Assembly: GCF_035084215.1 (NCBI RefSeq)
Contig: NW_027139272.1
Coordinates: 62,001 to 126,000 of the forward strand
Direction of reading: 5' to 3'
Origin: Heptranchias perlo
Taxonomy: Eukaryota
DNA length: 64,000 bases
Shown here in pieces: positions 13,161 to 58,159 of this stretch; position 1 is the first letter of the stretch; every line of letters begins with the position of its first letter. A program made the position numbers and the translations under genes. A model generated the notes under the pieces. The model worked only from the letters and a program-made list of their open reading frames with translations, was not told the origin of the DNA and did no database searches.

Positions 13161-13291
13161 GATATAATACTGTGCCTAGTTCTGGTCACCGAGAAGTAAG
13201 GCAGGGCAGAGGAGAGCAGTGAGGCCTGGTATCAAGGGTCTCAGTTATTGGGACAGACTGGAGAGACTTGAACACTTCACTCTGGAAAGGA

Positions 13292-14330: not shown

Positions 14331-14689
14331 TATATTTCTGTGGCTGCTGCACATCTATTACACAAACAGTGAGCAACAGGAGGCTATTTGACTGTGTGGG
14401 CATCACAATGAACCTATTCCTGTTCTGGTCTGATGTCTCCACAGCTGCATGTTTCCCCAGAGCTGCCTGGAAGTGTCCAGGAGCTGGTACATAGGCTGTT
14501 GTCTCCCTATCGAAGGGATACTGAGGTTAGGTGTAACACCACTGTCCCCAGCTCAGGGCTGCACAGACCAGAGACAAGCTCTGAGTTACTGGGAAAATAT
14601 AGACCATAAATAAAAGGAAAGGCTCAGTGAACCTTCAAAGTCTTCAGCAGCAGAGGAGACCCTGTCCAGTGTATTCCAGGGGGTAACGG

Positions 14690-17405
14690 ACACGGTGTCA
14701 CATCACTGGAGCCCGTCAGTGAAAACTCCCCAGATCACATCACATTTCACTAAAACAACTGATTATACATCGGGAAGGAAAGAAAATAGTGGTGTTGGTG
14801 GCAGTGTTGATGAAGGGGAATATTGCAGTGCTGGAGAGAGAGGATGTCCCTGTGGGGCCAAGGACAGACTCTATTTGGTTAGATAGAGTTAAGAAACAAT
14901 AGAGGTGCCAGTGCACTACTGCGTGTATTCGATAGGCCACCAAATAGTAGGATGGGTCTAGAGGAGCAAATTTGCAGGGAAATTACAGAGAGGTTCAAGA
15001 ACTGTAGAGTCGTGATAATAGGGGACTTCAACTATCCCAATATAGACTGGGATCGTAATAGTGTAAAGGGCAAAGAGGGGGAGGAATTTCTTGCTCAGTA
15101 TGTTTCCGGCCCAACGAGGAAGGAGGCATTGCTGGATCTGGTTCTGGAGAATGAGGTGGGTCAAGTGGAGCAAGTGTCAGTGGGGGAACATTTAGGGAAC
15201 AATGATCACAATATCATAAGGTTTAGATTAGTTATGGAAAAGGACAAGGAGCAAACTAGAGTAAAAATACTTAATTGGAGGAGGGCCAATTTCAGTGGGT
15301 TGAGAACGGATCTGGTCTGGGTAAATTGGAATCAAAGATTGTCAGGCAAAACTGTAATCGAACAATGGGTGGCCTTTAAAGAGGAGATGGTTCGGGTACA
15401 GTAGAGGTACATTCCCACGAGGGGGAAAGTTAGGGCAACTGAAGTCAGAGCTCCCTGGATGACGAAAGAGATAGAGAGTAAGATGAAGCAGAAAAAGGGT
15501 GTCTGACAGATGTCAGGTTGATAATACAAGTGAGAACCAGGCTGAATATAGAAAGTACAGAGGAGAAGTCAAAAGGAAATAAGAGGGGCAAAGAGAGAGT
15601 ATGAGAATAGACTGATGGCCAATGTAAAAGGGAATCCAAAAATTTCCTATAGGCATATATTGGAAAATGGGTAGAAAAAGGAGTGGTGGGGCCAATTAGG
15701 GACACATGGAGGCAGAGGGCATGGCTGAGGTACTAAATGAATATTTGCATCTGTCTTTACCAAGGAAGAAGATGCTGCCAAAGTCACAGTAAAAGAGGAA
15801 GTAGTTGAGATACTGGATGGGCTATAAATTGATAGAGGACACATGAGAAAGTATTTAAAGGAGATGAGTTACCCGGTCCGGATGGGATGCATCCTGGGTT
15901 GCTGAGGGAAGTAAGGGTGGAAATTGCGGAGGTACTGGCCAAAATCTTCCAAACATCCGTCGAGACGGGGGTGGTGCCAGAGGACTGGAGAACTGCAAAT
16001 GTTACACCCTTGTTCAAAAAAGGGTGTAAGGATAAACCCGACAACTACAGGCCAGTCAGTTTAACCTTGGTGGTGGGGAAGCTTTTAGAAACGATAATCT
16101 GGGACAAAATTAATAGTTACTTGGACAAGTGTGGATTAATAAAGGAAAGCCAGCACGGATTTCTTAAAGGCAAATCGTGTTTAACTAACTTGATTGAGTT
16201 TTTTAATGAGGTAACAGAGAAGGTTGATGTATATATGGACTTTCAAAAGGCGTTTGATAAAGTGCCACATAATAGGCTTGTCAGCAAAATTGAAGCCCAT
16301 GGAATAAAAGGGGCAGTGACAGCATGGATAGGAAATTGTAAAGTGACGGGAAACAGAGAGTAGTGGTGAACGGTTATTTTTCGGACTGGATGAAGGTGTG
16401 CAGTGGTGTTCCCCAGGGGTCAGTACAAGGACCATTGCTTTTTTTGATATATACTTAGACTTGGGTGTACAGGGCACAATTTCAAAATTTGCAGATGACA
16501 TAAAACTTGGAAGTGTAATAAACAGTGAGGAGGATAGTGATAGACTTCAAGAGAACATAGATAGGCTGGTGGAATGGGCGGACACATGTCAGATGAAATT
16601 TAACGCAGAGAAGTGTGAAGTGATACATTTTGGCAGGAAGAACGAGGAGAGGCAATATAAACTAAATGGTACAATTCTAAAGGGGGTGCAGGAACAGAGA
16701 GACCTGGGGTTATATGTGCCCAAATCTTTGAAGGTGGCAGGACAGGTTGAGAAAGCGGTTAAAAAAGCATGCAGGATCCTGGGCTTTATAAATAGAGGCA
16801 GAGAGTACAAAAGTAAGGAGGTCATGTTGAACCTTTAAAAAACACTGCTTCAGCCACAACTGGAGTATTGTGTCCAATTCTGGGAACCGCACTTTAGGAA
16901 GGATGTGAGGCCTTTGAGAGGGAACAGAAAAGATTGACTACAATGGTTCCAGGGGAGAGGGACTTCAGTTACCTGGATAGACTGGAGAAGTTGGGGTTGT
17001 TCTCCTGAGAGCAGAGAAGGTTGAGAGGAGATTTGATAGAAGTGTTCAAAATCATGAAGGATTTTGATAAAGTAAATAAGAGAAACTGTTCCCATTGGTC
17101 GAAGGGCCAAGAACCAGAGGACACAGATTCAGTGATTGGCAAAAGAACTAAAGGTGACATGAGGAAAAATGTTTTTACACAGCGAATAGTCATGATTTGG
17201 AATGCGCTGCCTGAAAGGTTGGTGGAGGCAGATTCAATCGTGGGCTTTCGAAAAGGAATTGGATAAATACTTGAAGGGGAAAAAAATTGCAGGGCTATGG
17301 GGAAAGAGTGGGGTGAATGGGACTAACTGGATTGTTCTTACAAAGAGCCGGCACGGGCTCGATGGGCCGAATGGCATCCTTCTGTGCTGTAACGATTCTA
17401 TGATT
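14690..17405 (+). mobile_element. CR1 LINE ORF2 (endonuclease part + RT), frameshifted
   Basis: IIGDFNYPNIDW and LLDLVL...HLGNNDH (APE endonuclease); NYRPVSLT, DFQKAFD and FADD (RT); ATTCTATG tail at ~17395. Confidence 0.92.
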
Positions 17406-17503
17406 AAAATGTACGATCCAAATAATACGGTATATTTATTAAAATGTACAATCCAAAGAGTACGGTATATTTATTAAAATGTTTCTGATTCTCTGTCCTG
17501 CAG

Positions 17504-17526
17504 GAACTGAAAAGATTGAGAGAAAG
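17504..17526 (+). CDS. TRIM exon 4 (23-bp micro-exon)
   Basis: CTGTCCTGCAG|GAACTGAAAAGATTGAGAGAAAG|GTGAGT; a 23-bp exon at this position is characteristic of B30.2 TRIMs. Confidence 0.9.
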
Positions 17527-17618
17527 GTGAGTACCCAATCCAAACCCAGACTCGGTCTTACACTGTGATCACAGATTGTATCCAGCAGTGAGTGAGTGAA
17601 TCAATCCCATTCAAACAG

Positions 17619-17854
17619 GGACCTGGACAAAGGGGAGGGAGGAGAAGGTGCAGAGAGAGGGGAAGATCAAGAGAGATCGTCAGAGGAAGGTGAAGATCAA
17701 GAGAGATCGTCAGAGGAAGGTGGAGATCAAGAGAGATCATCAGAGGAAGATGAAGATGAAGAGATACTGGTATCTGCAAGTCTGAAATACGCCGTGTTTC
17801 GAGGCCCTTTACTCTACGCAGTGTGGAAGGAAATGAAACAGATCATCTCTCCAG
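17619..17854 (+). CDS. TRIM exon 5 (linker with acidic repeat insert)
   Basis: AACAG|G GAC...CCA G|GTATGA; phases 2 and 1 fit the flanking exons; ends FRGPLLYAVWKEMKQIISP. Confidence 0.88.
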
Positions 17855-18081
17855 GTATGAAACGACTCCACAGGTTTGGGTGAACTTTCTGTAGAGTTTC
17901 CTGCTCTCTTCTCCCTCTCCTGAATGTACTGACTGTTGTTGTGTACCGATCACTGGGGCAGCAGTCTCTGGTACCTCACTCAAGGGGCCGTTCTTTTTGT
18001 GTGACCTCAGATTGAGCGATTCAAGTAGAGACAGAATCAGAACATTTTCTCATTTGAATCCAGACACTCGCACTTTCCAGT

Positions 18082-19590
18082 AGGGTTCACTGGACAGTGG
18101 TCAGACTGAGACCCCCCTGACCCAGGGTTCACTGGACAGTGATCAGACTGAGACCCCCCCTGACCCAGGGTTCACTGGACAGTGATCAGACTGAGACCCC
18201 CCCTGACCCAGGGTTCACTGGACAGTGATCAGACTGAGACCCCCCTGACCCAGGGTTCACTGGACAGTGAACAGACTGAGACCCCCCTGACCCAGGGTTC
18301 ACTGGACAGTGAACAGACTGAGACCCCCCTGACCCAGGGTTCACTGGACAGTGATCAGACTGAGACCCCACTGACCCAGGGTTCACTGGACAGTGATCAG
18401 ACTGAGACCCCCCTGACCCAGGGTTCACTGGACAGTGAACAGACTGAGACCCCTCTGACCCAGGGTTCACTGGACAGTGATCAGACTGAGACCCCCCTGA
18501 CCCAGGGTTTACTGGACAGTGATCAGACTGAGACCCCCCTGACCCAGGGTTCACTGGACAGTGATCAGACTGAGACCCCCTGACCCAGGACTCACTGGAC
18601 AGTGATCAGACTGAGACCCCTCTGACCCAGGGTTCACTGGACAGTGATCAGACTGAGACCCCTCTGACCCAGGGTTCACTGGACAGTGATCAGACTGAGA
18701 CCCCTCTGACCCAGGGTCCACTGGACAGTGATCAGACTGAGACACCCCTGACCCAGGGTTCACTGGACAGTGATCAGACTGAGACCCCTCTGACCCAGGG
18801 TTCACTGGACAGTGATCAGACTGAGACCCCTCTGACCCAGGGTCCACTGGACAGTGATCAGACTGAGACCCCCCTGACCCAGGGTTCACTGGACAGTGAT
18901 CAGACTGAGACCCCTCTGACCCAGGGTTCACTGGACAGTGATCAGACTGAGACCCCCCAGACCCAGGGTTCACTGGACAGTGACCAGACTGAGACCCCGT
19001 GACCCAGGTTTCACTGGACAGTGATCAGACTGAGACCCCTCTGACCCAGGGTTCACTGGACAGTGATCAGACTGAGAACCCTCTGACCCAGGGTTCACTG
19101 GACAGTGATCAGACTGAGACCCCTCTGACCCAGGGTTCACTGGACAGTGATCAGACTGAGACCCCCCTGACCCAGGGTTCACTGGACAGTGATCAGACTG
19201 AGACCCCGTGACCCAGGTTTCACTAGACAGTGGTCAGACTGAGACCCCCCTGACCCAGGGTTCACTGGACAGTGATCAGACTGAGACCCCCCCTGACCCA
19301 GGGTTCACTGGACAGTGATCAGACTGAGACCCCCCCTGACCCAGGGTTCACTGGACAGTGATCAGACTGAGACCCCCCTGACCCAGGGTTCACTGGACAG
19401 TGATCAGACTGAGAACCCTCTGACCCAGGGTTCACTGGACAGTGGTCAGACTGAGACCACCCTGACCCAGGGTTCACTGGACAGTGGTCAGACTGAGACC
19501 CCTCTGACCCAGGGTTCACTGGACAGTGATCAGACTGAGACCCCTCTGACCCAGGGTTCACTGGACAGTGATCAGACTGAGACCCCTGGC
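18082..19590. repeat. 42-bp minisatellite (TRIM intron 5)
   Basis: Unit GGGTTCACTGGACAGTGATCAGACTGAGACCCCCCTGACCCA, ~36 copies; internal hairpin TCACTG-GA-CAGTGA. Confidence 0.95.
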
Positions 19591-19610
19591 TGACTGTTTT
19601 CCTCTGCCTG

Positions 19611-19814
19611 GTCTGTAATATCTGTTCACTGAACACACTGGAGTCCAGGAATATATCGAACTCTACACTGTACCCAGTCTGTAATATCTGTTCACTGAAC
19701 ATACTGGAGTCCAGGAATATATCGAACTGTACACTGTACCCAGTCTGTAATATCTGTTCACTGAACACACTGGAGTCCAGGAATATATCGAACTGTACAC
19801 TGTACCCAGTCTGC
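19611..19814. repeat. 66-bp tandem repeat, 3 copies
   Basis: Units start at 19611, 19677 and 19743. Confidence 0.9.
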
Positions 19815-19943
19815 ACTATTTACTGATACAGAAATTATAGACTGGGGGCCGAGCCCAGTTTTCCAGATATCAGATATTAACCTGTGTCCGTCCATCTTCC
19901 TCTGTCTAAAATATTTAACATGATGTCATTTTTATTTCCCCAG

Positions 19944-20488
19944 TCCCAGCCTCACTGACCCTGGACCCAAACACAGCTCATCGTTCGCTCATCCTGTCTG
20001 AGGACTGGACCAGTGTGAGACTCGGTGACAGAGAATTACAGCTTCCCGATAACCCGGAGAGATTCGATTCAGGTCCTTGTGTCCTGGGATCACAGGGATT
20101 CACATCAGGGAAACATTACTGGGAGGTGGAGGTCGGGGACAAGACTCAGTGGGCCGTGGGTGTGGCCAGAGAGTCAGTTAACAGGAAGGGAACGATATCA
20201 CTGGGGCCTAAACGTGGATACTGGGCCGTGTTCCTGAGTAATGGGAATGAATATGAAGCTCTTGAAAGCCCATTTGTCCCACTGACCCTGAGTGTGAAAC
20301 TCAGGACCATCGGAGTTTACCTGGACTATGAGGGAGGACAGGTGTCATTTTACAATGCTGATGATATGTCCAATCTCTACACTTTCACTCACACATTCAC
20401 TGAGAAACTCTTTCCTTATTTCTATCCTGGATCGCACGATGAGGGTAAAAATACTGCTCCCCTCAAACTGCGTCATTTCAAACTGTAG
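19944..20488 (+). CDS. TRIM exon 6 (B30.2/PRY-SPRY domain)
   Basis: TTTCCCCAG|TC; [28 protein letters not shown] and [16 protein letters not shown] motifs; TAG stop. Spliced CDS is 1590 nt = 529 aa. Confidence 0.96.
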
Positions 20489-29570: not shown

Positions 29571-29592
29571 GAGTTAAAGGACTGAAGCGGAG
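29571..29592 (+). pseudogene. TRIM paralog pseudogene, exon-4 remnant (22 bp)
   Basis: TTGTACGCAG|GAGTTAAAGGACTGAAGCGGAG|GTGAGG; one base shorter than the 23-bp exon, giving an in-frame TGA. Confidence 0.7.
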
Positions 29593-29704: not shown

Positions 29705-29824
29705 GTTCCAGGAAAAGAGAGGAAATGACAGACTGTGTGGTGAGCAGTGATCTGGAGTTGGGAGTGTTCAGGGAACCCCTGCAATACACAGTCTAGAAAG
29801 AAATGCGACAAATGCTCTCTCCCG
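29705..29824 (+). pseudogene. TRIM paralog pseudogene, exon-5 remnant
   Basis: TTTCCTCAG acceptor; encodes VSSDLELGVFREPLQYTV*KEMRQMLSP versus VSASLKYAVFRGPLLYAVWKEMKQIISP in the intact gene; TAG at 29794; donor G|GTAAGC. Confidence 0.85.
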
Positions 29825-32800
29825 GTAAGCACCGATAGATATACCGCAATACACTCTCCAGGTAAACACCAATAGATATACCGCAATACACTCTCCCGGT
29901 AAACACCGATAGATATACCGCAATACACTCTCCCGGTAAACACCGATAGATATACCGCAATACACTCTCCCGGTAAACACCGATAGATATACCGCAATAC
30001 ATTCTCCCGGTAAACACCGATAGATATACCGCAATACACTCTCCCGGTAAACACCGATAGATATACCGCAATACACTCTCCCGGTAAACACCGATAGATA
30101 TACCGCAATACACTCTCCCGGTAAACACCAATAGATATACACCGTTAGATTTACCCTAATCCCCTCTCTCGGTAAACACCGATAGATTTACCCCAATCCC
30201 CTCTCTCGGTAAACACCGATAGATTTACCCTAATCCCCTCTCTCCTGGTAAACACCGATAGATTTACCCTAATCCACTCTCTCGGTAAACACCAATAGAT
30301 TCTAATCCCTTCTCTCGGGAAACACCGATAGGTTTACCCTAATCCCCTCTCTCGGTAAACACCGATAGATTCTAATCCCCTCTCTCGGTAAACACCGATA
30401 GATTTACCCCAATCCCCTCTCTCGGTAAACACCATTAGATTTACCCTAATCCCCTCTCTCGGTAAACACCGATAGATTTACCCTAATCCACTCTCTCAGT
30501 AAACACCGATAGATTTACCCTAATCCCCTCTCTCGGTAAACACCGATAGATTTACCCTAATCCCCTCTCTCGGTGAACACCGATGGATTTACCCTAATCC
30601 CCTCTCCTGGTAAACACCGATAGATTTACCCTAATCCCCTCTCTCGGTGAACACCGATAGATTTACCCTAATCCCCTTTCTCGGTAAACACCGATAGATT
30701 TACCCTAATCCCCTCTCTCGGTGAACACCGGTAGATTTACCCCAATCCCCTCTCTCGGTGAACACCGATAGATTTACCCCAATCCACTCTCTCGGTGAAC
30801 ACCGGTAGATTTACCCCAATCCCCTCTCTCAGTAAACACCGATTGATTTACCCTGATCCCCTCACTCCTGGTAAACACTGATAGATTTACCCTAATCCCC
30901 TCTCTCCTGGTAAACACCGATAGATTTACCCTAATCCCCTCTCTCCTGGTGAACACCGATAGATTTACCCTAATCCCCTCTCTCCTGTTAAACACCGATT
31001 GATTTACCCTAATCCCCTCTCTCGGTGAACACCGATAGATTTACCCGAATCCCCTCTCTCAGTAAACATCGATTGATTTACCCTAATCCCCTCTCTCGGT
31101 AAACACCAATAGATTTACCCTAATCCCCTCTCTCGGTGAACACCGATAGATTCACCCTAATCCCCTCTCGCGGTGAACACCGATAGATTTACCCTTATCC
31201 CCTCTCTCGGTGAACACCGATAGATTTAACCTAATCCCCTCTCTCGGTAAACACCGATAGATTTACCCCAATCCCCTCTCTGGGTGAACACCGATAGATT
31301 TACCCTAACCCCTCTCTCTGTAAACACCGATAGATTTACCCTAATCCCCTCTCTCGGTAAACACCGATAGATTTACCCCAATCCCCTCTCTCCTGGTGAA
31401 CACCGATAGATTTACCCTAATCCCATCTCTCCTGGTAAACACCGATAGATTTACCCTAATCCCCTCTCTCGGTAAACACCGATAGATTTACCCTAATCCC
31501 CTCTCCTGGTAAACACTGATAGATTTACCCTAATCCCCTCTCTCGGGAAACACCGATAGATTTACCCTAATCCCCTCTCTCGGTGAACACCATTAGATTT
31601 ACCCTAATCCCCTCTCTCGGTAAACACCGATAGATTTACCCCAATCCCCTCTATCGGTGAACACCGGTAGATTTACCCCAATCCCCTCTCTCGGTGAACA
31701 CCGATAGATTTACCCTAATCCCCTCTCTCGGTGAACACCGATAGATTTACCCTAATCCCCTCTCTCAGTAAACACCGATTGATTTACCCTGATCCCCTCT
31801 CTCGGTAAACACTGATAGATTTACCCTAATCCCCTCTCTCCTGGTAAACACCGATAGATTTACCCTAATCCCCTCTCTCGGTAAACACTGATAGATTTAC
31901 CCTAATCCCCTCTCTCCTGGTAAACACCGATAGATTTACCCTAATCCCCTCTCTCCTGGTGAACACCGATAGATTTACCCTAATCCCCTCTCTCCTGGTA
32001 AACACCGATAGATTTACCCTAATCCCCTCTCTCGGTGAACACCGATAGATTTACCCTAATCCCCTCTCTCAGTAAACACCGATTGATTTACCCGAATCCC
32101 CTCTCTCGGTGAACACCATTAGATTTTCCCTAATCCCCTCTCTCGGTAAACACCGATAGATTTACCCAAATCCACTCTCTCGGTAAACACCAATAGATTT
32201 ACCCTAATCCCCTCTCTCGGTGAACACCGATAGATTTACCCTAATCCCCTCTCTCGGTGAACACCGATAGATTTACCCTTATCCCCTCTCTCGGTGAACA
32301 CCGATAGATTTACCCTAATCCCCTCTCTCGGTGAACACCGATAGATTTACCCAAATCCCCTCTCTCGGTAAACAGCAATAGATTTACCCTAATCCCCTCT
32401 CTCGGTGAACACCGATAGATTCACCCTAATCCCCTCTCTCGGTGAACACCGATAGATTTACCCTTATCCCCTCTCTCGGTGAACACCGATAGATTTAACC
32501 TAATCCCCTCTCTCGGTAAACACCGATAGATTTACCCCAATCCCCTCTCTGGGTGAACACCGATAGATTTACCCTAATCCCCTCTCTCGGTAAACACCGA
32601 TAGATTTACCCTAATCCCCTCTCTCGGTAAACACCGATAGATTTACCCCAATCCCCTCTCTCCTGGTGAACACCGATAGATTTATCCTAATCCCATCTCT
32701 CCTGGTAAACACCGATAGATTTACCCTAATCCCCTCTCTCGGTAAACACCGATAGATTTACCCTAATCCCCTCTCCTGGTAAACACTGATAGATTTACCC

Positions 32801-35800
32801 TAATCCCCTCTCTCGGTAAACACCGATAGATTTACCCTAATCCCCTCTCTCGGTGAACACCATTAGATTTACCCTAATCCCCTCTCTCGGTAAACACCGA
32901 TAGATTTACCCCAATCCCCTCTCTCGGTGAACACCGGTAGATTTACCCCAATCCCCTCTCTCGGTGAACACCGATAGATTTACCCTAATCCCCTCGCTCG
33001 GTGAACACCGATAGATTTACCCTAATCCCCTCTCTCAGTAAACACCGATTGATTTACCCTGATCCCCTCTCTCGGTAAACACTGATAGATTTACCCTAAT
33101 CCCCTCTCTCCTGGTAAACACCGATAGATTTACCCTAATCCCCTCTCTCGGTAAACACTGATAGATTTACCCTAATCCCCTCTCTCCTGGTAAACACCGA
33201 TAGATTTACCCTAATCCCCTCTCTCCTGGTGAACACCGATAGATTTACCCTAATCCCCTCTCTCCTGGTAAACACCGATAGATTTACCCTAATCCCCTCT
33301 CTCGGTGAACACCGATAGATTTACCCTAATCCCCTCTCTCAGTAAACACCGATTGATTTACCCGAATCCCCTCTCTCGGTGAACACCATTAGATTTACCC
33401 TAATCCCCTCTCTCGGTAAACACCGATAGATTTACCCAAATCCCCTCTCTCGGTAAACACCAATAGATTTACCCTAATCCCCTCTCTCGGTAAACACCGA
33501 TAGATTTACCCTAATCCCCTCTCTCGGTGAACACCGATAGATTTACCCTTATCCCCTCTCTCGGTGAACACCGATAGATTTACCCTAATCCCCTCTCTCG
33601 GTGAACACCGATAGATTTACCCTAATCCCCTCTCTGGGTGAACACCGATAGATTTACCCTAATCCCCTCTCTCGGTAAACACCGATAGATTTACCCCAAT
33701 CCCCTCTCTCGGTAAACACCGATAGATTTACCCCAATCCCCTCTCTCCTGGTGAACACCGATAGATTTACCCTAATCCCCTCTCCTGGTAAACACTGATA
33801 GATTTACCCTAATCCCCTCTCTCGGTAAACACCGATAGATTTACCCTAATCCCCTCTCTCGGTGAACACCATTAGATTTACCCTAATCCCCTCTCTCGGT
33901 AAAAAACGATAGATTTACCCAAATCCCCTCTCTCGGTAAACACCAATAGATTTACCCTAATCCCCTCTCTCGGTGAACACCGATAGATTTACCCTAATCC
34001 CCTCTCTCCTGGTAAACACCGATAGATTTACCCTAATCCCCTCTCTCGGTGAACACCGATAGATTTACCCTAATCCCCTCTCTCGGTGAACACCGATAGA
34101 TTTACCCTAATCCCCTCTCTCGGTGAACACCGATAGACTTACCCTAATCCCCTCTCTCGGTGAACACCGATAGATTTACCCTAATCCCCTCTCTCGGTAA
34201 ACACCGATAGATTTACCCTAATCCCCTCTCTCGGTAAACACCGATAGATTTACCCTAATCCCCTCTCTCGGTGAACACAGATAGATTTACCCTAATCCCC
34301 TCTCTCGGTAAACACCGATAGACTAACCCAAATCCCCTCTCTCGGTAAACACCGATAGATTTACCCCAATCCCCTCTCTCGGTGAACACCGATAGATTTA
34401 CCCTAATCCCCTCTCTCGGTAAACACTGATAGTTTTACCCTAATCCCCTCTCTCGGTAAACACTGATAGATTTACCCTAATCCCCTCTCTCGGTGAACAC
34501 CGGTAGATTTACTCCAATCCCCTCTCTCGGTAAACACTGATAGATTTACCCCATTCCCCTCTCTCGGTAAACATTGATAGATTTACCCTAATCCCCTCTC
34601 TCGGTAAACACCGATAGATTGACCCAAATTCCCTCTCTCCTGGTAAACACCGATAGATTTACCCCAATCCCCTCTCTCGGTAAACACCGATAGATTTACC
34701 CCAAACCCCTCTCTCGGTAAACACCGATAGATTTACCCTAATCCCCTCTCTCCAGGTGAACACCGATAGATTTTCCCTAATCCCCTCTTTCGGTGAACAC
34801 CAATAGATTTACCCTAATCCCCTCTCTCGGTAAACACCGATAGATTTACCCCAAACCCCTCTCTCGGTAAACACCGATAGATTTACCCTAATCCCCTCTG
34901 TCCTGGTGAACACCGATAGATTTACCCTAATCCCCTCTCTCGGTGAACACCGATAGATTTAACCGAATCCCCTCTCTCGGTAAACACCGATAGATTTACC
35001 CTAATCCCCTCTCTCCTGGTGAACACCGATAGATTTACCCCAATCCCCTCTCTCGGTAAACACCGATAGATTTACCCCAATCCCCTCTCTCTGTAAACAC
35101 CGATAGATTTACCCTAATCCCCTCTATCCTGGTGAACACCGATAGATTTACCCTAATCCCCTCTCTCGGTGAACACCGATAGATTTACCGTAATCCCCTC
35201 TCTCGGTAAACACCGACAGATTTACCCTAATCCCCTCTCTCGGTGAACACCGATAGATTTACCCTAATCCCCTCTCTCCTGGTAAACACCGATAGATTTA
35301 CCCTAATCCCCTCTCTCGGTAAACATCGATAGATTTACCCTAATCCCCTCTCCTGGTAAACACCGATAGATTTACCCTAATCCCCTCTCTCGGTAAACAC
35401 CGATAGATTTACCCTAATCCCCTCTCTCGGTAAACACCGATAGATTTACCCCAATCCCCTCTCTCGGTAAACACCGATAGATTTACCCTAATCCCCTCTC
35501 TCGGTAAACACCGATGGATTTACCCCAATCCCCTCTCTCGGTGAACACCGATAGATTTACCCCAATCCCCTCTCTCGGTAAACACCAATAGATTTACCCT
35601 AATCCCCTCTCTCGGTGAACACCGATAGATTTACCCTAATCCCCTCTCTCAGTAAACACCGCTGGATTTACCCTAATCCCCTCTCTCGGTAAACACCGAT
35701 AGATTTACCCTAATCCCCTCTCTCGGTGAACACTGATAGATTTACCCTAATCCCCTCTCTCGGTAAACACCGATAGATTTACCCTAAACCCTTCTCTCCT

Positions 35801-38800
35801 GGTAAACACCGATAGATTTACCCTAATCCCCTCTCTCGGTAAACACCGATAGATTTACCAGAATCCCCTCTCTCGGTAAACACCGATAGATTTACCCCAA
35901 TCCCCTCTCTCGGTAAACACTGATAGATTTATCCTAATCTCCTCTCTCGGTAAACACTGATAGTTTTACCCTAATCCCCTCTCTCGGTAAACACTGATAG
36001 ATTTACCCTAATCCCCTCTCTCGGTAAACACTGATAGTTTTACCCTAATCCCCTCTCTCGGTAAACACTGATAGATTTACCCTAATCCCCTCTCTCGGTG
36101 AACACCGGTAGATTTACCCCAATCCCCTCTCTCGGTAAACACTGATAGATTTACCCCATTCCCCTCTCTCGGTAAACATTGATAGATTTACCCTAATCCC
36201 CTCTCTCGGTAAACACCGATAGATTGACCAAAATCCCCTCTCTCCTGGTAAACACCGATAGATTTACCCCAATCCCCTCTCTCCTGGTAAACACCGATAG
36301 ATTTACCCTAATCCCCTCTCTCGTTAAACACCGATAGATTTACCCGAATCCCCTCTCTCGGTAAACACCGATAGATTTACCCTAATCCCCTCTCTCGGTA
36401 AGCACCGGTAGATTTACCCCAATCCCCTCTCTCGGTAAACACCGATAGATTTACCCCAATCCCCTCTCTCGGTAAACATTGATAGATTTACCCTAATCCC
36501 CTCTCTCGGTAAACACCGATAGATTGACCCTAATCCCCTCTCTCGGTAAACACCGATAGATTTACCCTAATCCCCTCTCTCCTGTTAAACACCGATAGAT
36601 TCACCCTAATCCCCTCTATCGGTAAACACCGATAGATTTACCCCAATCCCCTCTCTCGGTAAACACCGATAGATTTACCCTAATCCCCTCTCTCCTGGTA
36701 AACACCGATAGATTTACCCTAATCCCCTCTCTCCTGGTGAACACCGATAGATTTACCCTAATCCCCTCTCTCGGTGAACACCGATAGATTTACCGTAATC
36801 CCCTCTCTCGGTAAACACCGATAGATTTACCGTAATCCCCTCTCTCGGTAAACACCGACAGATTTACCCTAATCCCCTCTCTCGGTGAACACCGATAGAT
36901 TTACCCTAATCCCCTCTCCTGGTAAACACCGATAGATTTACCCGAATCCCCTCTCTCGGTAAACATCGATAGATTTACCCTAATCCCCTCTCCTGGTAAA
37001 CACCGATAGATTTACCCGAATCCCCTCTCTCGGTAAACACCGATAGATTTACCCTAATCCCCTCTCTCGGTAAACACTGATAGATTTACCCTAAACCCCT
37101 CTCTCAGTAAACATCGATAGATTTACCCTAATCCCCTCTCCTGGTAAACACCGATAGATTTACCCTAATCCCCTCTCTCGGTAAACATCGATAGATTTAC
37201 CCTAATCCCCTCTCCTGGTAAACATCGATAGATTTACCCTAATCCCCTCTCTCGGTAAACACCGATAGATTTACCCTAATCCCCTCTCTCGGTGAACACC
37301 GATAGATTTACCCCAATCCCGTCTCTCGGTAAACACCGATAGATTTACCCTAATCCCCTCTCTCGGTGAACACCGACAGATTTACCCTAATCCCCTCTCT
37401 CAGTAAACACCGATAGATTTACCCTAATCCCCTCTCGCGGTAAACACCGATAGATTTACCCTAATCCCCTCTCTCGGTGAACACTGATAGATTTACCCTA
37501 ATCCCCTCTCTCGGTAAACACCGATAGATTTACCCTAATCCCCTCTCTCGGTAAACACCGATAGATTTACCCTAATCCCCTCTCTCCTGGTAAACACCGA
37601 TAGATTTACCCCAATCCCCTCTCTCGGTAAACACCGATAGATTTACCCTAATCCCCTCTCTCCTGGTAAACACCGATAGATTTACCCTAATCCACTCTCT
37701 CGGTAAACACCAATAGATTCTAATCCCTTCTCTCGGGAAACACCGATAGGTTTACCCTAATCCCCTCTCTCGGTAAACACCGATAGATTCTAATCCCCTC
37801 TCTCGGTAAACACCGATAGATTTACCCCAATCCCCTCTCTCGGTAAACACCGATAGATTTACCCTAATCCCCTCTCTCCTGGTAAACACCGATAGATTTA
37901 CCCTAATCCCCTCTCTCGGTAAACACCGATAGATTTACCCTCATCCCCTCTCTCAGTAAACACCGATTGATTTACCCTAATCCCCTCTCTCCTGGTGAAC
38001 ACCGATGGATTTACCCCAATCCCCTCTCTCCTGGTGAACACCGATAGATTTACCCTAATCCCCTCTCCTGGTAAACACCGATAGATTTACCCTAATCCAC
38101 TCTCTCGGTGAACACCATTAGATTTACCCTAATACCCTCTCTCGGTAAACACCAATAGATTTACCCTAATCCCCTCTCTCGCTGAACACCGATAGATTTA
38201 CCCTAATCCCCTCTCTCAGTAAACACCGATAGATTTACCCTAATCCCCTCTCTCGGTAAACACCGATAGATTTACCCAAATCCCCTCTCTCGGTAAACAC
38301 CAATAGATTTACCCTAATCCCCTCTCTCGGTGAACACCGATAGATTCACCCTAATCCCCTCTCTCGGTGAACACCGATAGATTTACCCTTATCCCCTCTC
38401 TCGGTGAATACCGATAGATTTAACCTAATCCCCTCTCTCGGTAAACACCGATAGATTTACCCCAATCCCCTCTCTGGGTGAACACCGATCGATTTACCCT
38501 AATCCCCTCTCTCGGTAAACACCGATAGATTTACCCTAATCCCCTCTCTCGGTAAACACCGATAGATTTACCCCAATCCCCTCTCTCCTGGTGAACACCG
38601 ATAGATTTACCCTAATCCCATCTCTCCTGGTAAACACCGATAGATTTACCCTAATCCCCTCTCTCGGTAAACACCGATAGATTTACCCTAATCCCCTCTC
38701 CTGGTAAACACTGATAGATTTACCCTAATCCCCTCTCTCGGTAAACACCGATAGATTTACCCTAATCCCCTCTCTCGGTGAACACCGATAGATTTACCCT

Positions 38801-41800
38801 AATCCCCTCTCTCGGTGAACACCGATAGATTTACCCTAATCCCCTCTCTCGGTGAACACCGATAGATTTACCCTAATCCCCTCTCTCGGTGAACACCGAT
38901 AGAGTTACCCTAATCCCCTCTCTCGGTGAACACCGATAGATTTACCCTAATCCCCTCTCTCGGTAAACACCGATAGATTTAACCTAATCCCCTCTATCGG
39001 TGAACACCGATAGATTTACCCTAATCCCCTCTCTCAGTGAACACCGATAGATTTACCCCAATCCCCTCTCTCGGTGAACACCGATAGATTTACCCTAATC
39101 CCCTCTCTCGGTAAACACTGATAGTTTTACCCTAATCCCCTCTCTCGGTAAACACTGATAGATTTACCCTAATCCCCTCTCTCGGTGAACACCGGTAGAT
39201 TTACCCCAATCCCCTCTCTCGGTAAACACTGATAGATTTACCCCATTCCCCTCTCTCGGTAAACATTGATAGATTTACCCTAATCCCCTCTCTCGGTAAA
39301 CACCGATAGATTGACCCAAATCCCCTCTCTCCTGGTAAACACCGATAGATTTACCCCAATCCCCTCTCTCCTGGTAAACACTGATAGATTTACCCCAATC
39401 CCCTCTCTCGGTAAACACCGATAGATTTAACCGAATCCCCTCTCTCGGTAAACACCGATAGATTTACCCTAATACCCTCTCTCGTGGTAAACACCGATAG
39501 ATTTACCCCAATCCCCTCTCTCGGTAAACACCGATAGATTTACCCCAATCCCCTCTCTCGGTAAACACCGATAGATTTACCCTAATCCCCTCTCTCCTGG
39601 TGAACACCGATAGATTTACCCTAATCCCCTCTCTCGGTGAACACCGATAGATTTACCGTAATCCCCTCTCTCGGTAAACACCAACAGATTTACCCTAATC
39701 CCCTCTCTCGGTGAACACCGATAGATTTACCCTAATCCCCTCTCTCCTGGTAAACACCGATAGATTTACCCTAATCCCCTCTCTCGGTAAACACCGATAG
39801 ATTTACCCTAATCCCCTCTCCTGGTAAACACCGATAGATTTACCCTAATCCCCTCTCTCGGTAAACATCGATAGATTTACCCTAATCCCCTCTCCTGGTA
39901 AACACCGATAGATTTACCCTAATCCCCTCTCTCGGTAAACACCGATAGATTTACCCTAATCCCCTCTCTCGGTAAACACCGATAGATTTACCCCAATCCC
40001 CTCTCTCGGTAAACACCGATAGATTTACCCTAATCACCTCTCTCGGTAAACACCGATAGATTTACCCCAATCCCTTCTCTCGGTGAACACCGATAGATTT
40101 ACCCGAATCCCCTCTCTCGGTAAACACCGATAGATTCTAATCCCCTCTCTCGGTAAACACCGATAGATTTACCCTAATCCCCTCTCTCAGTAAACACCGA
40201 TAGATTTACCCTAATCCCCTCTCTCGGTAAACACCGATAGATTTACCCTAACCCCCTCTCTCGGTGAACACTGATAGATTTACCCTAATCCCCTCTCTCC
40301 TGGTAAACACCGATAGATTTACCCCAATCCCCTCTCTCGGTAAACACCGATAGATTTACCCTAATCCCCTCTCTCCTGGTAAACACCGATAGATTTACCC
40401 TAATCCCCTCTCTCGGTAAACACCGATAGATTTACCCTAATCCCCTCTCTCGGTAAACACCGATAGATTCTAATCCCCTCTCTCGGTAAACACCGATAGA
40501 TTTACCCCAATCCCCTCTCTCGGTAAACACCGATAGATTTACCCTAATCCCCTCTCTCCTGATAAACACCGATAGATTTACCCTAATCCCCTCTCTCGGT
40601 AAACACCGATAGATTTACCCTAATCCCCTCTCTCGGTAAACACCGATAGATTTACCCTAATCCCCTCTCTCGGTAAACACCGATAGATTCTAATCCCCTC
40701 TCTCGGTAAACACCGATAGATTTACCCCAATCCCCTCTCTCGGTAAACACCGATAGATTTACCCTAATCCCCTCTCTCCTGGTGAACACCGATAGATTTA
40801 CCCTAATCCCCTCTCTCGGTAAACAGCGATAGATTTACCCTAATCCCCTCTCTCGGTGAACTCCGATAGATTTACCCTAATCCCCTCTCTCGGTGAACAC
40901 CGATAGATTTACCCTAATCCCCTCTCTCAGTAAACACCGATTGATTTACCCTAATCCCCTCTCTCCTGGTGAACACCGATAGATTTACCCCAATCCCCTC
41001 TCTCCTGGTGAACACCGATAGATTTACCCTAATCCCCTCTCCTGGTAAACACCGATAGATTTACCCATTCCACTCTCTCGGTGAACACCATTAGATTTAC
41101 CCTAATCCCCTCTCTCGGTAAACACCAATAGATTTACCCTAATCCCCTCTCTCGCTGAACACCGATAGATTTACCCTAATCCCCTCTCTCGGTGAACACC
41201 GATAGATTTACCCTAATCCCCTCTCCTGGTAAACACCGATAGATTTACCCCAATCCCCTCTCTCGGTAAACACCGATAGATTTACCCCAATCCCCTCTCT
41301 CGGTAAACACCGATAGATTTAACCGAATCCCCTCTCTCGGTAAACACCGATAGATTTACCCTAATCCCCTCTCTCCTGGTAAACACCGATAGATTTACCC
41401 CAATCCCCTCTCTCGGTAAACACCGATAGATTTACCCCAATCCCCTCTCTCGGTAAACACCGATAGATTTACCCTAATCCCCTCTCTCCTGGTGAACACC
41501 GATAGATTTACCCTAATCCCCTCTCTCGGTGAACACCGATAGATTTACCGTAATCCCCTCTCTCGGTAAACACCGACAGATTTACCCTAATCCCCTCTCT
41601 CGGTGAACACCGATAGATTTACCCTAATCCCCTCTCTCCTGGTAAACACCGATAGATTTACCCTAATCCCCTCTCTCGGTAAACACCGATAGATTTACCT
41701 TAATCCCCTCTCCTGGTAAACACCGATAGATTTACCCTAATCCCCTCTCTCGGTAAACATCGATAGATTTACCCTAATCCCCTCTCCTGGTAAACACCGA

Positions 41801-44800
41801 TAGATTTACCCTAATCCCCTCTCTCGGTAAACACCGATAGATTTACCCTAATCCCCTCTCTCGGTAAACACCGATAGATTTACCCCAATCCCCTCTCTCG
41901 GTAAACACCGATAGATTTACCCTAATCACCTCTCTCGGTAAACACCGATAGATTTACCCCAATCCCTTCTCTCGGTGAACACCGATAGATTTACCCGAAT
42001 CCCCTCTCTCGGTAAACACCGATAGATTCTAATCCCCTCTCTCGGTAAACACCGATAGATTTACCCCAAACCCCTCTCTCGGTAAACACCGATAGATTTA
42101 CCCTAATCCCCTCTCTCGGTAAACACCGATAGATTTACCCTAACCCCTCTCTCGGTGAACACTGATAGATTTACCCGAATCCCCTCTCTCGGTAAACACC
42201 GATAGATTTACCCTAATCCCCTCTCTCGGTAAACACCGATAGATTTACCCTAATCCCCTCTCTCCTGGTAAACACCGATAGATTTACCCCAATCCCCTCT
42301 CTCGGTAAACACCGATAGATTTACCCTAATCCCCTCTCTCCTGGTAAACACCGATAGATTTACCCTAATCCCCTCTCTCGGTAAACACCGATAGATTTAC
42401 CCTAATCCCCTCTCTCGGTGAACACCGATAGATTTACCCTAATCCCCTCTCTCGGTAAACACCGATAGATTCTAATCCCCTCTCTCGGTAAACACCGATA
42501 GATTTACCCTGATCCCCTCTCTCGGCAAACACCGATAGATTCTAATCCCCTCTCTCGGTAAACACCGATAGATTTACCCCAATCCCCTCTCTCGGTAAAC
42601 ACCGATAGATTTACCCTAATCCCCTCTCTCCTGATAAACACCGATAGATTTACCCTAATCCCCTCTCTCGGTAAACACCGATAGATTTACACTAATTCCC
42701 TCTCTCCTGGTGAACACCGATAGATTTACCCTAATCCCCTCTCTCGGTAAACAGCGATAGATTTACCCTAATCCCCTCTCTCGGTGAACTCCGATAGATT
42801 TACCCTAATCCCCTCTCTCGGTGAACACCGATAGATTTACCCTAATCCCCTCTCTCAGTAAACACCGATTGATTTACCCTAATCCCCTCTCTCCTGGTGA
42901 ACACCGATAGATTTACCCCAATCCCCTCTCTCCTGGTGAACACCGATAGATTTACCCTAATCCCCTCTCCTGGTAAACACCGATAGATTTACCCATTCCA
43001 CTCTCTCGGTGAACACCATTAGATTTACCCTAATCCCCTCTCTCGGTAAACACCAATAGATTTACCCTAATCCCCTCTCTCGCTGAACACCGATAGATTT
43101 ACCCTCATCCCCTCTCTCGGTGAACACCGATAGATTTACCCTAATCCCCTCTCCTGGTAAACACCGATAGATTTACCCTAATCCACTCTCTCGGTAAACA
43201 CCAATAGATTTACCCTAATCCCCTCTCCTGGTAAACACCGATAGATTTACCCTAATCCACTCTCTCGGTAAACACCATTAGATTTACCCTAATCCCCTCT
43301 CTCGGTAAACACCAATAGATTTACCCTAATCCCCTCTCTCGCTGAACACCGATAGATTTACCCTAATTCCCTCTCTCGGTGAACACCGATAGATTTACCC
43401 TAATCCTCTCTCTCCTGTTAAACACCGATAGATTTACCCTAATCCCCTCTCTCGCTGAACACCGATAGATTTACCCTAATCCCCTCTCTCGGTGAACACC
43501 GATAGATTTACCCTAATCCCCTCTCTCGGTGAACACCGATAGATTTACCCTAATCCCCTCTCTCGGTGAACACCGATAGATTTACACTAATCCCCTCTCT
43601 CCTGGTAAACACCGATAGATTTACCCTAATCCCCTCTCTCGGTGAACACCGATAGATTGACCCTAATCCCCTCTCTCGGTGAACACCGATAGATTTACCC
43701 TAATCCCCTCTCTCGGTGAACACCGATAGATTTACCCTAATCCCCTCTCTCGGTGAACAACGATAGATTTACCCTAATCCCCTCTCTCGGTGAACACCGA
43801 TAGAGTTACCCTAATCCCCTCTCTCGGTGAACACCGATAGATTGACCCTAATCCCCTCTCTCGGTGAACACCGATAGATTTACCCTAATCCCCTCTCTCG
43901 GTGAACACCGATAGATTTACCCTAATCCCCTCTCTCGGTGAACACCGATAGATTTACCCTAATCCCCTCTCTCGGTGAACACCGATAGAGTTACCCTAAT
44001 CCCCTCTCTCGGTGAACACCGATAGATTTACCCTAATCCCCTCTCTCGGTAAACACCGATAGATTTAACCTAATCCCCTCTCTCGGTGAACACCGATAGA
44101 TTTACCCTAATCCCCTCTCTCAGTGAACACCGATAGATTTACCCCAATCCCCTCTCTCGGTGAACACCGATAGATTTACCCTAATCCCCTCTCTCGGTAA
44201 ACACTGATAGTTTTACCCTAATCCCCTCTCTCGGTAAACACTGATAGATTTACCCTAATCCCCTCTCTCGGTGAACACCGGTAGATTTACCCCAATCCCC
44301 TCTCTCGGTAAACACTGATAGATTTACCCCATTCCCCTCTCTCGGTAAACATTGATAGATTTACCCTAATCCCCTCTCTCGGTAAACACCGATAGATTGA
44401 CCCAAATCCCCTCTCTCCTGGTAAACACCGATAGATTTACCCCAATCCCCTCTCTCCTGGTAAACACCGATAGATTTACCCTAATCCCCTCTCTCGGTAA
44501 ACACCGATAGATTTAACCGAATCCCCTCTCTCGGTAAACACCGATAGATTTACCCTAATCCCCTCTCTCCTGGTAAACACCGATAGATTTACCCAAATCC
44601 CCTCTCTCGGTAAACACCGATAGATTTACCCCAATCCCCTCTCTCGGTAAACACCGATAGATTTACCCTAATCCCCTCTCTCCTGGTGAACACCGATAGA
44701 TTTACCCTAATCCCCTCTCTCGGTGAACACCGATAGATTTACCGTAATCCCCTCTCTCGGTAAACACCGACAGATTTACCCTAATCCCCTCTCTCGGTGA

Positions 44801-46894
44801 ACACCGATAGATTTACCCTAATCCCCTCTCTCCTGGTAAACACCGATAGATTTACCCTAATCCCCTCTCTCGGTAAACACCGATAGATTTACCCTAATCC
44901 CCTCTCCTGGTAAACACCGATAGATTAACACTAATCCCCTCTCTCGGTAAACATCGATAGATTTACCCTAATCCCCTCTCCTGGTAAACACCGATAGATT
45001 TACCCTAATCCCCTCTCTCGGTAAACACCGATAGATTTACCCTAATCCCCTCTCTCGGTAAACACCGATAGATTTACCCCAATCCCCTCTCTCGGTAAAC
45101 ACCGATAGATTTACCCTAATCACCTCTCTCGGTAAACACCGATAGATTTACCCCAATCCCTTCTCTCGGTGAACACCGATAGATTTACCCCAATCCCCTC
45201 TCTCGGTAAACACCGATAGATTCTAATCCCCTCTCTCGGTAAACACCGATAGATTTACCCTAATCCCCTCTCTCAGTAAACACCGATAGATTTACCCTAA
45301 TCCCCTCTCTCGGTAAACACCGATAGATTTACCCTAATCCCCTCTCTCGGTAAACACCGATAGATTTACCCTAATCCCCTCTCTCGGTAAACACCGATAG
45401 ATTTACCCTAATCCCCTCTCTCCTGATAAACACCGATAGATTTACCCTAATCCCCTCTCTCGGTAAACACCGATAGATTTACCCTAATCCCCTCTCTCGG
45501 TAAACACCGATAGATTTACCCCAATCCCCTCTCTCGGTGAACACCGATAGATTTACCCTAATCCCCTCTCTCGGTAAACACCGATAGATTTACCCTAATC
45601 CCCTCTCTCAGTAAACACCGATAGATTTACCCTAATCCCCTCTCTCGGTCAACACCGATAGATTTACCCCAATCCCCTCTCTCGGTAAACACCGATAGAT
45701 TTACCCTAATCCCCTCTCTCCTGATAAACACCGATAGATTTACCCTAATCCCCTCTCTCGGTAAACACCGATAGATTCTAATCCCCTCTCTCGGTAAACA
45801 CCGATAGATTTACACTAATCCCCTCTCCTGGTGAACACCGATAGATTTACCCTAATCCCCTCTCTCGGTAAACAGCGATAGATTTACCCTAATCCCCTCT
45901 CTCGGTGAACTCCGATAGATTTACCCTAATCCCCTCTCTCGGTGAACACCGATAGATTTACCCTAATCCCCTCTCTCAGTAAACACCGATTGATTTACCC
46001 TAATCCCCTCTCTCCTGGTGAACACCGATAGATTTACCCCAATCCCCTCTCTCCTGGTGAACACCGATAGATTTACCCTAATCCCCTCTCCTGGTAAACA
46101 CCGATAGATTTACCCATTCCACTCTCTCGGTGAACACCATTAGATTTACCCTAATCCCCTCTCTCGGTAAACACCAATAGATTTACCCTCATCCCCTCTC
46201 TCGCTGAACACCGATAGATTTACCCTAATCCCCTCTCTCGGTGAACACCGATAGATTTACCCTAATCCCCTCTCCTGGTAAACACCGATAGATTTACCCT
46301 AATCCACTCTCTCGGTAAACACCAATAGATTTACCCTAATCCCCTCTCTCGCTGAACACCGATAGATTTACCCTAATCCCCTCTCTCGGTGAACACCGAT
46401 AGATTTACCCTAATCCTCTCTCTCCTGTTAAACACCGATAGATTTACCCTAATCCCCTCTCTCGCTGAACACCGATAGATTTACCCGAATCCCCTCTCTC
46501 GGTGAACACCGATAGATTTACCCTAATCCCCTCTCTCGGTGAACACCGATAGATTTACCCTAATCCCCTCTCTCGGTGAACACCGATAGATTTACACTAA
46601 TCCCCTCTCTCCTGGTAAACACCGATAGATTTACCCTAATCCCCTCTCTCGGTGAACACCGATAGATTGACCCTAATCCCCTCTCTCGGTGAACACCGAT
46701 AGATTTACCCTAATCCCCTCTCTCGGTGAACACCGATAGATTTACCCTAATCCCCTCTCTCGGTGAACACCGATAGATTTACCCCAATCCCCTCTCTCCG
46801 TGTACACCGATAGATTTACCCTAATCCCCTCTCTCGGTGAACACCGATAGATTTACCCTAATCCCCTCTCTCGGTGAACACCGATAGATTTACC
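29816..46894. repeat. ~17 kb, 37-bp satellite array (~460 units)
   Basis: Main unit GGTAAACACCGATAGATTTACCCTAATCCCCTCTCTC; the first ~8 units (to ~30140) are the variant GGTAAACACCGATAGATATACCGCAATACACTCTCCC. Confidence 0.98.
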
Positions 46895-47175
46895 ATGTGA
46901 GGTTTGATGTTATCTCTGTTGTCTGTAGCTGTTCTGATGACACAGTGAGTTTATGAAATAGGTGGTTGAGCCCCAGAGGAAGATTGCAGGTTCCATCCTT
47001 GGTCTGTTTTAATCAGCTGGTCATCCCCATACCTATTACTGAGGAGTCAGGGCCGTCTGGGGCAGCTCCATTAGCAATGGGAAGGACTGCGAGCAGTCTC
47101 TGGATTTCTCCCTACGCCCTGCAATATGGTATTCACTTCATGAACCTCAGACAGTTGAAAGGCTGAGTGGACGTT

Positions 47176-49519: not shown

Positions 49520-50057
49520 TGCTGGCTCTGATCACTCTCGATCCCAGAACCGGGCAGTCCAGGCTTGTAGTACCTGAGGACCTGACCATGGTGGACGCCA
49601 ATGATCTGAGCCAATAACCTAAACAACGTCTGCCAGGGGTATGAGCAGTGCACCTGCGTTCTGAGCAGCCAGGGATTCACCTCAGGGAATCACTACTGGG
49701 AGATGGAGGCGGCCAACAAGACCGACTGGGACTTGGGACTGGCCCAGGAGACGGCCAACAGGAAGGGGCAGATCACGCTGACCCTCGATGGGTAGTGGAC
49801 CATCTGTCAGAGGTACGAGCACATCGAAGGGGCTCTGACCTCACCCTCCACTGTCCTCAAACTAACAACCAAGCCCAGGAAGATCAGGATCTATGAGGGA
49901 GGACAGGTGTCCTTTTACAATGCTGATGACATGTTCCATCTCTGCACTTTTTCACTCACATGTTCAAAGACAAACTGTTCCCTTTCTTTAATCCTTGGTT
50001 GAACAAAAGTAGGAGAAACACGGAACCTCTTTTAAACGGCGTCATTTGAAACTGTAA
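49520..50057 (+). pseudogene. TRIM paralog pseudogene, B30.2/PRY-SPRY exon
   Basis: AAAAG|TG acceptor in the same phase as 19944; ITLDPRTG, CVLSSQGFTSGNHYWEME, TDWDLGLAQETANRKG and [14 protein letters not shown]; stops at 49615 and 49793, frameshifts, loss of LDY; ends AAACTGTAA like the intact gene. Confidence 0.9.
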
Positions 50058-58153: not shown

Positions 58154-58159
58154 CTCCCC

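What the first reader, a model, noticed from the sequence alone, without database searches (positions are those of the whole stretch)
29812..46894. A 17-kb satellite born from a splice donor
Pseudo-exon 5 ends CTCTCTCCCG|GTAAGCACCGATAGAT. Every satellite unit contains CTCTC(C/T)CG|GT(A/G)AACACCGATAGAT, so the array starts at the exon/intron junction and repeats it ~460 times. The first variant block also has GCAATACAC, which occurs inside the exon (29781). The intron is 19.7 kb versus 2.1 kb in the intact gene. Inference: this captures de novo satellite birth from genic sequence, creating hundreds of weakened donor-like sites that may have caused or followed pseudogenisation.
Basis: partly seen in the sequence, partly recalled or inferred. 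Interest (0 to 1): 0.7.

Follow-up and report, generated by a model that had tools for sequence, protein, structure and literature searches.

The report
Splice-donor minisatellite in dead shark gene
A 37-base piece spanning the end of an exon and its splice signal in a broken shark immune (TRIM) gene is repeated about 460 times into the next intron, and in this genome assembly occurs only at the same spot in 12 duplicated copies of that gene; it is likely a harmless, unusually large example of a repeat type already known from human and chicken genes, and probably not what killed the gene.

Summary
Real. A 37-bp tandem array (about 459 units, 29817-46894) starts at the donor of a TRIM pseudo-exon. 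All 2,976 genome-wide matches to the unit lie in 12 arrays (105-701 units, 3.9-26 kb), each at this donor in a copy of a ~155-kb TRIM/MHC-class-I-like duplication. The unit is exon end plus the first 21 intron bases, so local birth from genic sequence is supported. It is not a fresh birth: three unit subtypes differ by 16-27%, the 12 flanks by 1.4%. GTAAGC is a variant of 2 of 12 copies; 10 have CAG|GTAAAC. The gene lacks its RING/B-box/coiled-coil exons and shares frameshifts across copies. One contig from a probable RNA run joins the first donor across the whole array to an acceptor 68 bases beyond it. A causal role in gene death is unsupported, not excluded. The type is published (human F7, ABCA7 up to ~427 units; chicken exon stuttering), and this scan noted several other cases on other DNA of this genome (unchecked notes).

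The parts
29817..46894 (+). 37-bp minisatellite, about 459 units: 8 A-type units, a 51-nt deletion junction, then about 450 B-type units (37-, 39- and 33-nt variants)
29705..29824 (+). TRIM pseudo-exon 5 (120 nt; frameshifted against shark orthologues; TAG at 29794-29796 in 6 of 12 copies); source of the exonic part of the unit
29781..29789 (+). exonic 9-mer also present in A-type units (positions -44 to -36 from the donor)
29822..29830 (+). first (authentic) splice donor, CCG|GTAAGC here and in C1097a; CAG|GTAAAC in the other 10 copies
29571..29592 (+). pseudo-exon 4 remnant, 22 nt (23 nt in the intact paralogue), in-frame TGA
46960..47077 (+). cryptic acceptor (AG 46960-46961) and following sequence to which one X5 contig joins the end of pseudo-exon 5; only the first 30 of 114 loose letters were shown, so the right end is inferred
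49520..50057 (+). PRY/SPRY (B30.2) last pseudo-exon with frameshifts, a 9-nt deletion and a stop; about 70% aa to shark A33-like TRIM proteins
8363..20488 (+). intact six-exon TRIM paralogue (530 codons; RING, B-box, PRY, SPRY); context, not the source of the array

Best explanation
This is a locus-specific minisatellite that repeats the end of a TRIM exon with the first 21 intron bases, likely born once by a short tandem duplication across the splice donor and likely neutral. Shown: it is confined to this junction in 12 copies of a ~155-kb duplication, has three unit subtypes in a 5'-A, C, B-3' order with fixed ends, and changes length by blocks of tens of units. Inferred: the first event duplicated either -16..+21 directly (units then drifting to 11/16 identity with the exon end) or -44..+21 followed by a 28-nt deletion (which gives the A unit at 15/16; favoured about 60:40); unequal exchange or slippage then expanded it, the whole TRIM/MHC block was duplicated with gene already broken and array already in place, and each copy has since grown or shrunk on its own. 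Splicing likely keeps to the first donor because it is first and strongest, as in human F7; the gene was likely killed by loss of its 5' exons and frameshifts.
For: Genome-wide counts 360+/370- and 1515+/1461- are matched exactly by the 12 arrays. Exon and downstream flank each have 12 full-length matches. Exon end matches paralogous coding exons ending CCAG|GT, so the direction is exon to repeat. Unit tail against exon end 11/16 for A and B; 11/16 or better occurs in 0.04-0.05% of 5,692 flank positions; sequence after the array matches 2-3/16. Flanks differ by 0.09-1.96% (mean 1.38%, 2,248 columns), subtypes by 6, 8 and 10 of 37. Window against C1097a: flanks 0.09% apart, arrays 459 against 701 units through insertions of 77 and 167 units. 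25 of 4,384 GT-bearing pseudo-sites match the consensus as well as the first donor (7 of 9), none better. One X5 contig joins 29824 to 46962, a GT-AG intron of 17,137 bp. Precedent: PMC1557585, PMC12954441, PMC5954066.
Against: No array-free orthologous junction could be seen: the nearest array-free exons in this genome are at 60% aa or less and orthologues were available only as proteins. The splice evidence is one contig at depth 2.7 in a run only guessed to be RNA; use of internal donors was not tested. The contig goes to a cryptic acceptor, not to the old last exon. The exon-derived 16 bases vary more between subtypes (8 of 16) than the donor-side 21 (3 of 21; Fisher p 0.03, post hoc), which strict neutrality does not predict, though slippage in the CT tract may explain it. 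No 65-nt intermediate unit was found among 4,563 units. Array age and gene death are of the same rough order, so their order is open.
Confidence: 0.8

Rival explanations
1. The array grew while the gene still worked and disabled it by disturbing splicing (internal donors, or a switch to the cryptic acceptor 68 bases past the array), after which the other lesions accumulated.
For: Subtype divergence (8-14% per lineage) is of the same order as a rough estimate of decay since gene death (pseudogene branch 0.28 aa changes per site against 0.07-0.10 for two intact orthologues). The X5 contig uses a cryptic acceptor. In human ABCA7 a donor-starting VNTR raises skipping of the next exon with length (PMC5954066, passages). 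No intact orthologue was found among the 89 matches scored in this genome.
Against: The 5' exons are absent wherever the interval up to the intact paralogue was in view and frameshifts are shared, which is enough to kill the gene. The first donor is used. Pseudo-donors are weaker. F7 pseudo-sites do not compete even when strengthened.
Confidence: 0.1
2. The repeat arose from intron sequence next to the donor, or was inserted there, and resembles the exon end by chance or by later conversion.
For: Only 11 of 16 bases match in the simple register. The window is rich in unrelated arrays: 26% tandem repeat without this one. In the window copy an internal-type unit sits at the exon boundary, so exchange reaches into the exon.
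Against: No copy anywhere else in the assembly; the exon end agrees with array-free paralogues; register test 0.04-0.05%; 9-mer test 0 of 622.
Confidence: 0.07
3. The length, or several of the 12 copies, are assembly artefacts (haplotype duplicates, expanded repeats).
For: All 12 lie on small contigs (76-464 kb); pairs such as window/C1097a (0.09%), C1097c/C1406 (0.27%) and C1105c/C1424 (0.31%) may be alleles; C1097a holds near-perfect blocks of 70-85 units.
Against: Arrays contain no N and 140 distinct units in the window alone; three copies lie on one contig twice over (C1105, C1097); unit contigs in DNA run X1 are some 200-300 times deeper than the flank (rough, and possibly the same sample).
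Confidence: 0.03

Closest known systems
Human F7 intron 7 37-bp VNTR and the cases listed with it (6-16 intron 2, CBS intron 13, lamin B2, PDGF intron 4); Borensztajn et al. 2006, PMC1557585 (abstract and 12 passages seen)
   Same: First monomer spans the exon-intron boundary; donor reiterated through the intron; the most upstream site is the one used.
   Different: 5-25 copies there, 105-701 here; pseudo-sites identical to the real donor in F7, weaker here; working genes there, a truncated pseudogene here.
Human ABCA7 intron 18 25-bp VNTR; De Roeck et al. 2018 (author name recalled), PMC5954066 (12 passages seen)
   Same: Array begins at the donor GT; up to about 427 units and 10.7 kb; highly variable length.
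   Different: Unit starts at +1 with no stated exon part; functional gene with length-linked exon skipping; single locus.
Avian 'exon stuttering'; Hron et al. 2026, PMC12954441 (abstract, section 7 whole, first part of the Discussion seen)
   Same: Local expansion of an exon edge with its splice site into the next intron; spans up to 23.6 kb; repeat-rich surroundings.
   Different: [quoted passage not shown] Here a shark, 47% GC, a regular 37-bp period, a pseudogene, 12 paralogous arrays.
Shark zinc-binding protein A33-like / TRIM39-like TRIM genes (Scyliorhinus torazame, Chiloscyllium punctatum, Stegostoma tigrinum, Hemiscyllium ocellatum)
   Same: Host pseudogene's last exons are 73-78% aa identical over the 61-aa query and about 70% over the last exon.
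   Different: Those proteins are full length; here only broken exons 4-6 remain.

Membership tests
Junction-reiterating minisatellite (F7 IVS7 type) | First monomer spans an exon-intron boundary | tested here: met
   unit = exon end + intron +1..+21 in 12 of 12 copies
Junction-reiterating minisatellite (F7 IVS7 type) | Head-to-tail units of minisatellite size that reiterate the donor | tested here: met
   37-bp period; 437 of 458 downstream units keep GT, mostly weaker than the first donor
Junction-reiterating minisatellite (F7 IVS7 type) | Variable copy number between alleles | tested here: inconclusive
   105-701 units among 12 copies in one assembly; alleles and paralogues cannot be told apart
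Junction-reiterating minisatellite (F7 IVS7 type) | Only or mainly the most upstream donor is used | tested here: inconclusive
   one contig of a probable RNA run uses the first donor; internal donors not tested
Exon stuttering (Hron et al. 2026) | Local origin, confined to the intron next to the source exon, copying the exon edge and splice site | tested here: met
   exon part is 16 nt, under their 20-bp minimum hit
Exon stuttering (Hron et al. 2026) | Coding region stays intact | tested here: not met
   host is a truncated pseudogene; works like exon stuttering but is not filed as a strict member
Exon stuttering (Hron et al. 2026) | Length varies among individuals; located on dot-like chromosomes | not testable with these tools
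   one assembly, unplaced contigs
Dispersed or chromosomal satellite DNA family | Arrays at several unrelated loci | tested here: not met
   all 730 and all 2,976 exact pattern matches lie in the 12 paralogous arrays
Functional RING-B-box-coiled-coil-PRY/SPRY TRIM gene | RING, B-box and coiled-coil exons and an open frame | tested here: not met
   no such exons between the intact paralogue and pseudo-exon 4 in the window or C1105b; frameshifts in the last exon of all 12

The most novel reading that the evidence does not exclude
Exon stuttering, so far described for bird dot chromosomes, also acts in shark MHC-type regions, and here it killed a gene: the array expanded while this conserved shark TRIM gene still worked, pushed splicing onto a cryptic acceptor just past the array, and the 12 duplicated arrays of 105-701 donors are a natural dose series in which that effect can be measured.
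Probability: 0.1. Interest if true: 0.6.

Novelty: new member of a known kind. Interest (0 to 1): 0.27.

Why it matters
As an ordinary member of a known type it adds a shark case at the upper end of the size range. Its one special value is that the same array exists in 12 copies with flanks 0.1-2% apart, which gives a readable history of subtype turnover, block duplication and exchange at the exon boundary, and a natural test of first-donor dominance against 100-660 downstream GT sites. It would matter more if sharks prove to show exon stuttering region-wide, since Hron et al. report it only in birds and gerbils, or if the array preceded and caused gene loss.

Tried and rejected
Dispersed shark repeat family inserted at the donor: rejected. 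Array-free genomic copy as source of the X5 joint: the downstream flank has 12 full-length matches, each just behind an array, plus 2 weak partial ones, so none in this assembly. Array-free close paralogue as pre-array state: none; next hits 60% aa or less among 53 matches, 69% or less over long DNA stretches of the last exon. 65-nt intermediate unit: none among 4,563 units. Purging or protection of the donor GT inside the array: per-position variation at GT is like that of other positions; nothing to report. Regular higher-order repeat in the window array: only scattered identical runs of 9-10 units (shuffles: 4 at most). Run search: no listed holder is on record as RNA; X5-X8 are guessed RNA. 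X5, X7, X8 and X9 contigs stop at 29478-29483 near a possible donor at 29481, and X6, X7, X8, X9 do not cover pseudo-exon 5: a weak hint at most, and a known base difference at 29479 may explain the stops. Sequence look-up among earlier notes found nothing. Paper searches: among listed papers only Hron et al. carries the stuttering terms, with 0 mentions of shark (top 10 listed of a very loose search); I found no paper on this locus, which does not show that none exists. A search on giant satellite introns failed on a character and was not run. Supplements of the papers were not read; those of Hron et al. list their 115 genes and could bear on the size comparison.

Full report
The observation. 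Tandem Repeats Finder gives one array at 29817-46894, period 37, 458.8 copies, 90% matches. Splitting on the conserved core gives 459 units in 140 distinct sequences, 370 of 37 nt, 71 of 39 nt, 12 of 33 nt. The first 8 units are type A, then after a 51-nt deletion junction the rest are type B. The array begins at the end of a 120-nt exon-like stretch (29705-29824) and ends exactly after base 21 of the last unit, where unique sequence resumes.

The host. The window is C1105:62001-126000 of a 3.25-Gb genome. A 61-aa open piece of the exon at 49520 finds only cartilaginous-fish proteins: 6 of 12 candidates, A33-like TRIMs of four sharks at 70-78% and a sawfish TRIM39-like at 57%. Against these the window holds an intact TRIM paralogue (8363-20488, about 59% in the last exon) and a pseudogene (about 70%) of which only exons 4-6 remain. 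Exon 4 is 22 nt instead of 23, exon 5 is frameshifted, and the last exon has frameshifts and a 9-nt deletion at the same spacing in the 12 copies (single anchors failed in two copies through a point change and an insertion, and the exon-4 pattern failed in four through point changes, with no gap in the alignment). No RING, B-box or coiled-coil exon for it was found in the window or in C1105b, and no intact orthologue among 89 matches scored of 951 candidates in the genome. That the organism is a shark is inferred from these hits and agrees with earlier notes.

Where else the unit occurs. A 30-base B pattern has 360 + 370 exact matches in the genome, a looser 21-base pattern 1515 + 1461. The exon has 12 full-length matches at 96-100% on 7 contigs, the downstream flank also 12. 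Counting in the fetched stretches around these 12 places gives exactly 360/370 and 1515/1461. So every match lies in an array that starts at this donor. The arrays hold 105, 133, 173, 265, 353 (split by an insertion), 389, 436, 459, 468, 524, 570 and 701 units (3.9-26 kb). They lie in a repeated block: on C1105 the offset is 153-161 kb at 95-99.5% identity, containing the intact TRIM, the pseudogene and an MHC class I-like C1 exon. Some of the 12 may be alleles.

How the unit was made. Array-free TRIM paralogues end this exon in CCAG|GT, so the exon end is ancestral and the repeat copies it. In the 37-base register the last 16 bases of A and B each match the exon end at 11 of 16; such a match occurs at 0.04-0.05% of 5,692 flank positions. 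The A tail can also be read as exon -44..-36 joined to -7..-1 (15 of 16); 0 of 622 overlapping control windows share a 9-mer with the A unit, though a uniform model would expect about 1% (my estimate). Two routes fit: a direct 37-bp duplication with later drift, or a 65-bp duplication with a 28-nt deletion. No 65-nt unit survives among 4,563. Both are inference.

Age and turnover. The 12 flanks differ by 0.09-1.96% (mean 1.38%); subtypes A, B, C differ at 6, 8 and 10 of 37 positions. The simplest arrays run A, then 5-7 C, then B; others repeat A-C-B blocks internally; the window and C1097a have lost all C and most A. Window and C1097a, 0.09% apart in flanks, differ by insertions of 77 and 167 units and some 30 small replacements. 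All 12 start with A and end with B at the same base. The array is therefore much older than the duplication. A run of a second organism label (X9, another study) holds a 67-nt A-type contig and a 262-nt flank contig with 6 differences. The window's junction CCG|GTAAGC is shared only with C1097a, the majority junction sits one unit downstream, and CCG|GTAAGC occurs as an internal unit in C1406; I infer that an internal unit was placed at the exon boundary by unequal exchange. The tree is unrooted, so this polarity rests on the paralogues' CCAG. The TAG in exon 5 is in 6 of 12 copies, so it may be younger than the array, but the older shared lesions cannot be ordered against it: a rough three-way estimate gives 0.28 aa changes per site on the pseudogene branch against 0.07 and 0.10 on two intact ones, the same order of age as the subtypes.

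Splicing. By a plain count of matches to the CAG|GTAAGT consensus (general knowledge), the first donor scores 7 of 9 in all 12 copies; 25 of 4,384 GT-bearing pseudo-sites score 7, none more; in the window 1 of 437. In run X5, guessed to be RNA, one 215-nt contig at depth 2.7 matches 29726-29826 without a difference and goes on with letters found at 46964. That is a GT-AG intron 29825-46961 of 17,137 bp. The exon letters fit only the window and C1097a, and no array-free genomic copy is in the assembly. So a transcript likely uses the first donor and skips the whole array, landing on a cryptic acceptor 68 bases past it rather than on the old last exon. This is one contig; array contigs also occur in X5 and X6 at depth 23-29, and internal donor use was not tested.

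What is known. Borensztajn et al. (PMC1557585; abstract and passages) describe minisatellites whose first unit spans an exon-intron boundary in F7, 6-16, CBS, lamin B2 and PDGF, and show that the most upstream donor wins. The ABCA7 VNTR starts at a donor, reaches about 427 units, and raises skipping of the next exon (PMC5954066; passages). Hron et al. (PMC12954441; abstract, section 7, part of the Discussion) found exon stuttering in 236 chicken introns, spans up to 23,555 bp, and not in other vertebrates except gerbils. Small elasmobranch chromosomes are reported rich in short tandem repeats (10.1101/2025.06.08.657570; passages); this window is 26% tandem repeat without the array. Earlier notes of this scan list several donor-repeating arrays elsewhere in this genome, one of about 700 copies (unchecked; they led me to the Hron and ABCA7 papers).

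Verdict. A real, locally born, old splice-junction minisatellite in a truncated shark TRIM pseudogene, multiplied with its duplicated block. New member of a known kind; interest 0.27. The reading that it killed the gene is not excluded (0.1).

Noticed in passing
G000 C1105, C1097, C1101, C1406, C1424, C1486, C1772; window 1-64000: The window is part of a ~155-kb block (intact TRIM, TRIM pseudogene, MHC class I-like gene) present up to 12 times at 98-99% identity on small unplaced contigs; a large TRIM cluster lies on C42.
   Followed up: partly
window 59700-59960, minus strand: Open C1-set exon, best hits MR1, CD1 and MHC class I alpha3; likely a non-classical class I gene.
   Followed up: partly
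G000:C1101:about 402025-408195 (L084): A 6.2-kb LTR-bounded element inside one array: 673-bp LTRs 99.7% identical, TG...CA ends, 4-base target duplication, no frame of 150 aa or more; likely a young non-autonomous element.
   Followed up: partly
C1105b and C1424 arrays (units 38 and 48): A shared 121-base unrelated insertion in one unit, absent from the related C1105c array.
   Followed up: no
window 17651-17764 and 8603-8668: Coding tandem repeats in the intact TRIM: a 30-bp acidic repeat in exon 5 whose length differs among copies, and an NPD/NLN repeat between RING and B-box.
   Followed up: no
window 29100-29483: Contigs of probable RNA runs cover this stretch behind a LINE 3' end at depth 5-94 and stop near a possible donor at 29481; perhaps an exon of a non-coding transcript through the pseudogene.
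   Followed up: partly
window 5685-6516, 55763-56434, 51615-53194, 56949-58158, 53907-54766: 49-, 33- and 67-bp minisatellites; the 49- and 33-bp ones recur at separate sites in this window and in C1097, unlike the locus-specific 37-bp array.
   Followed up: no
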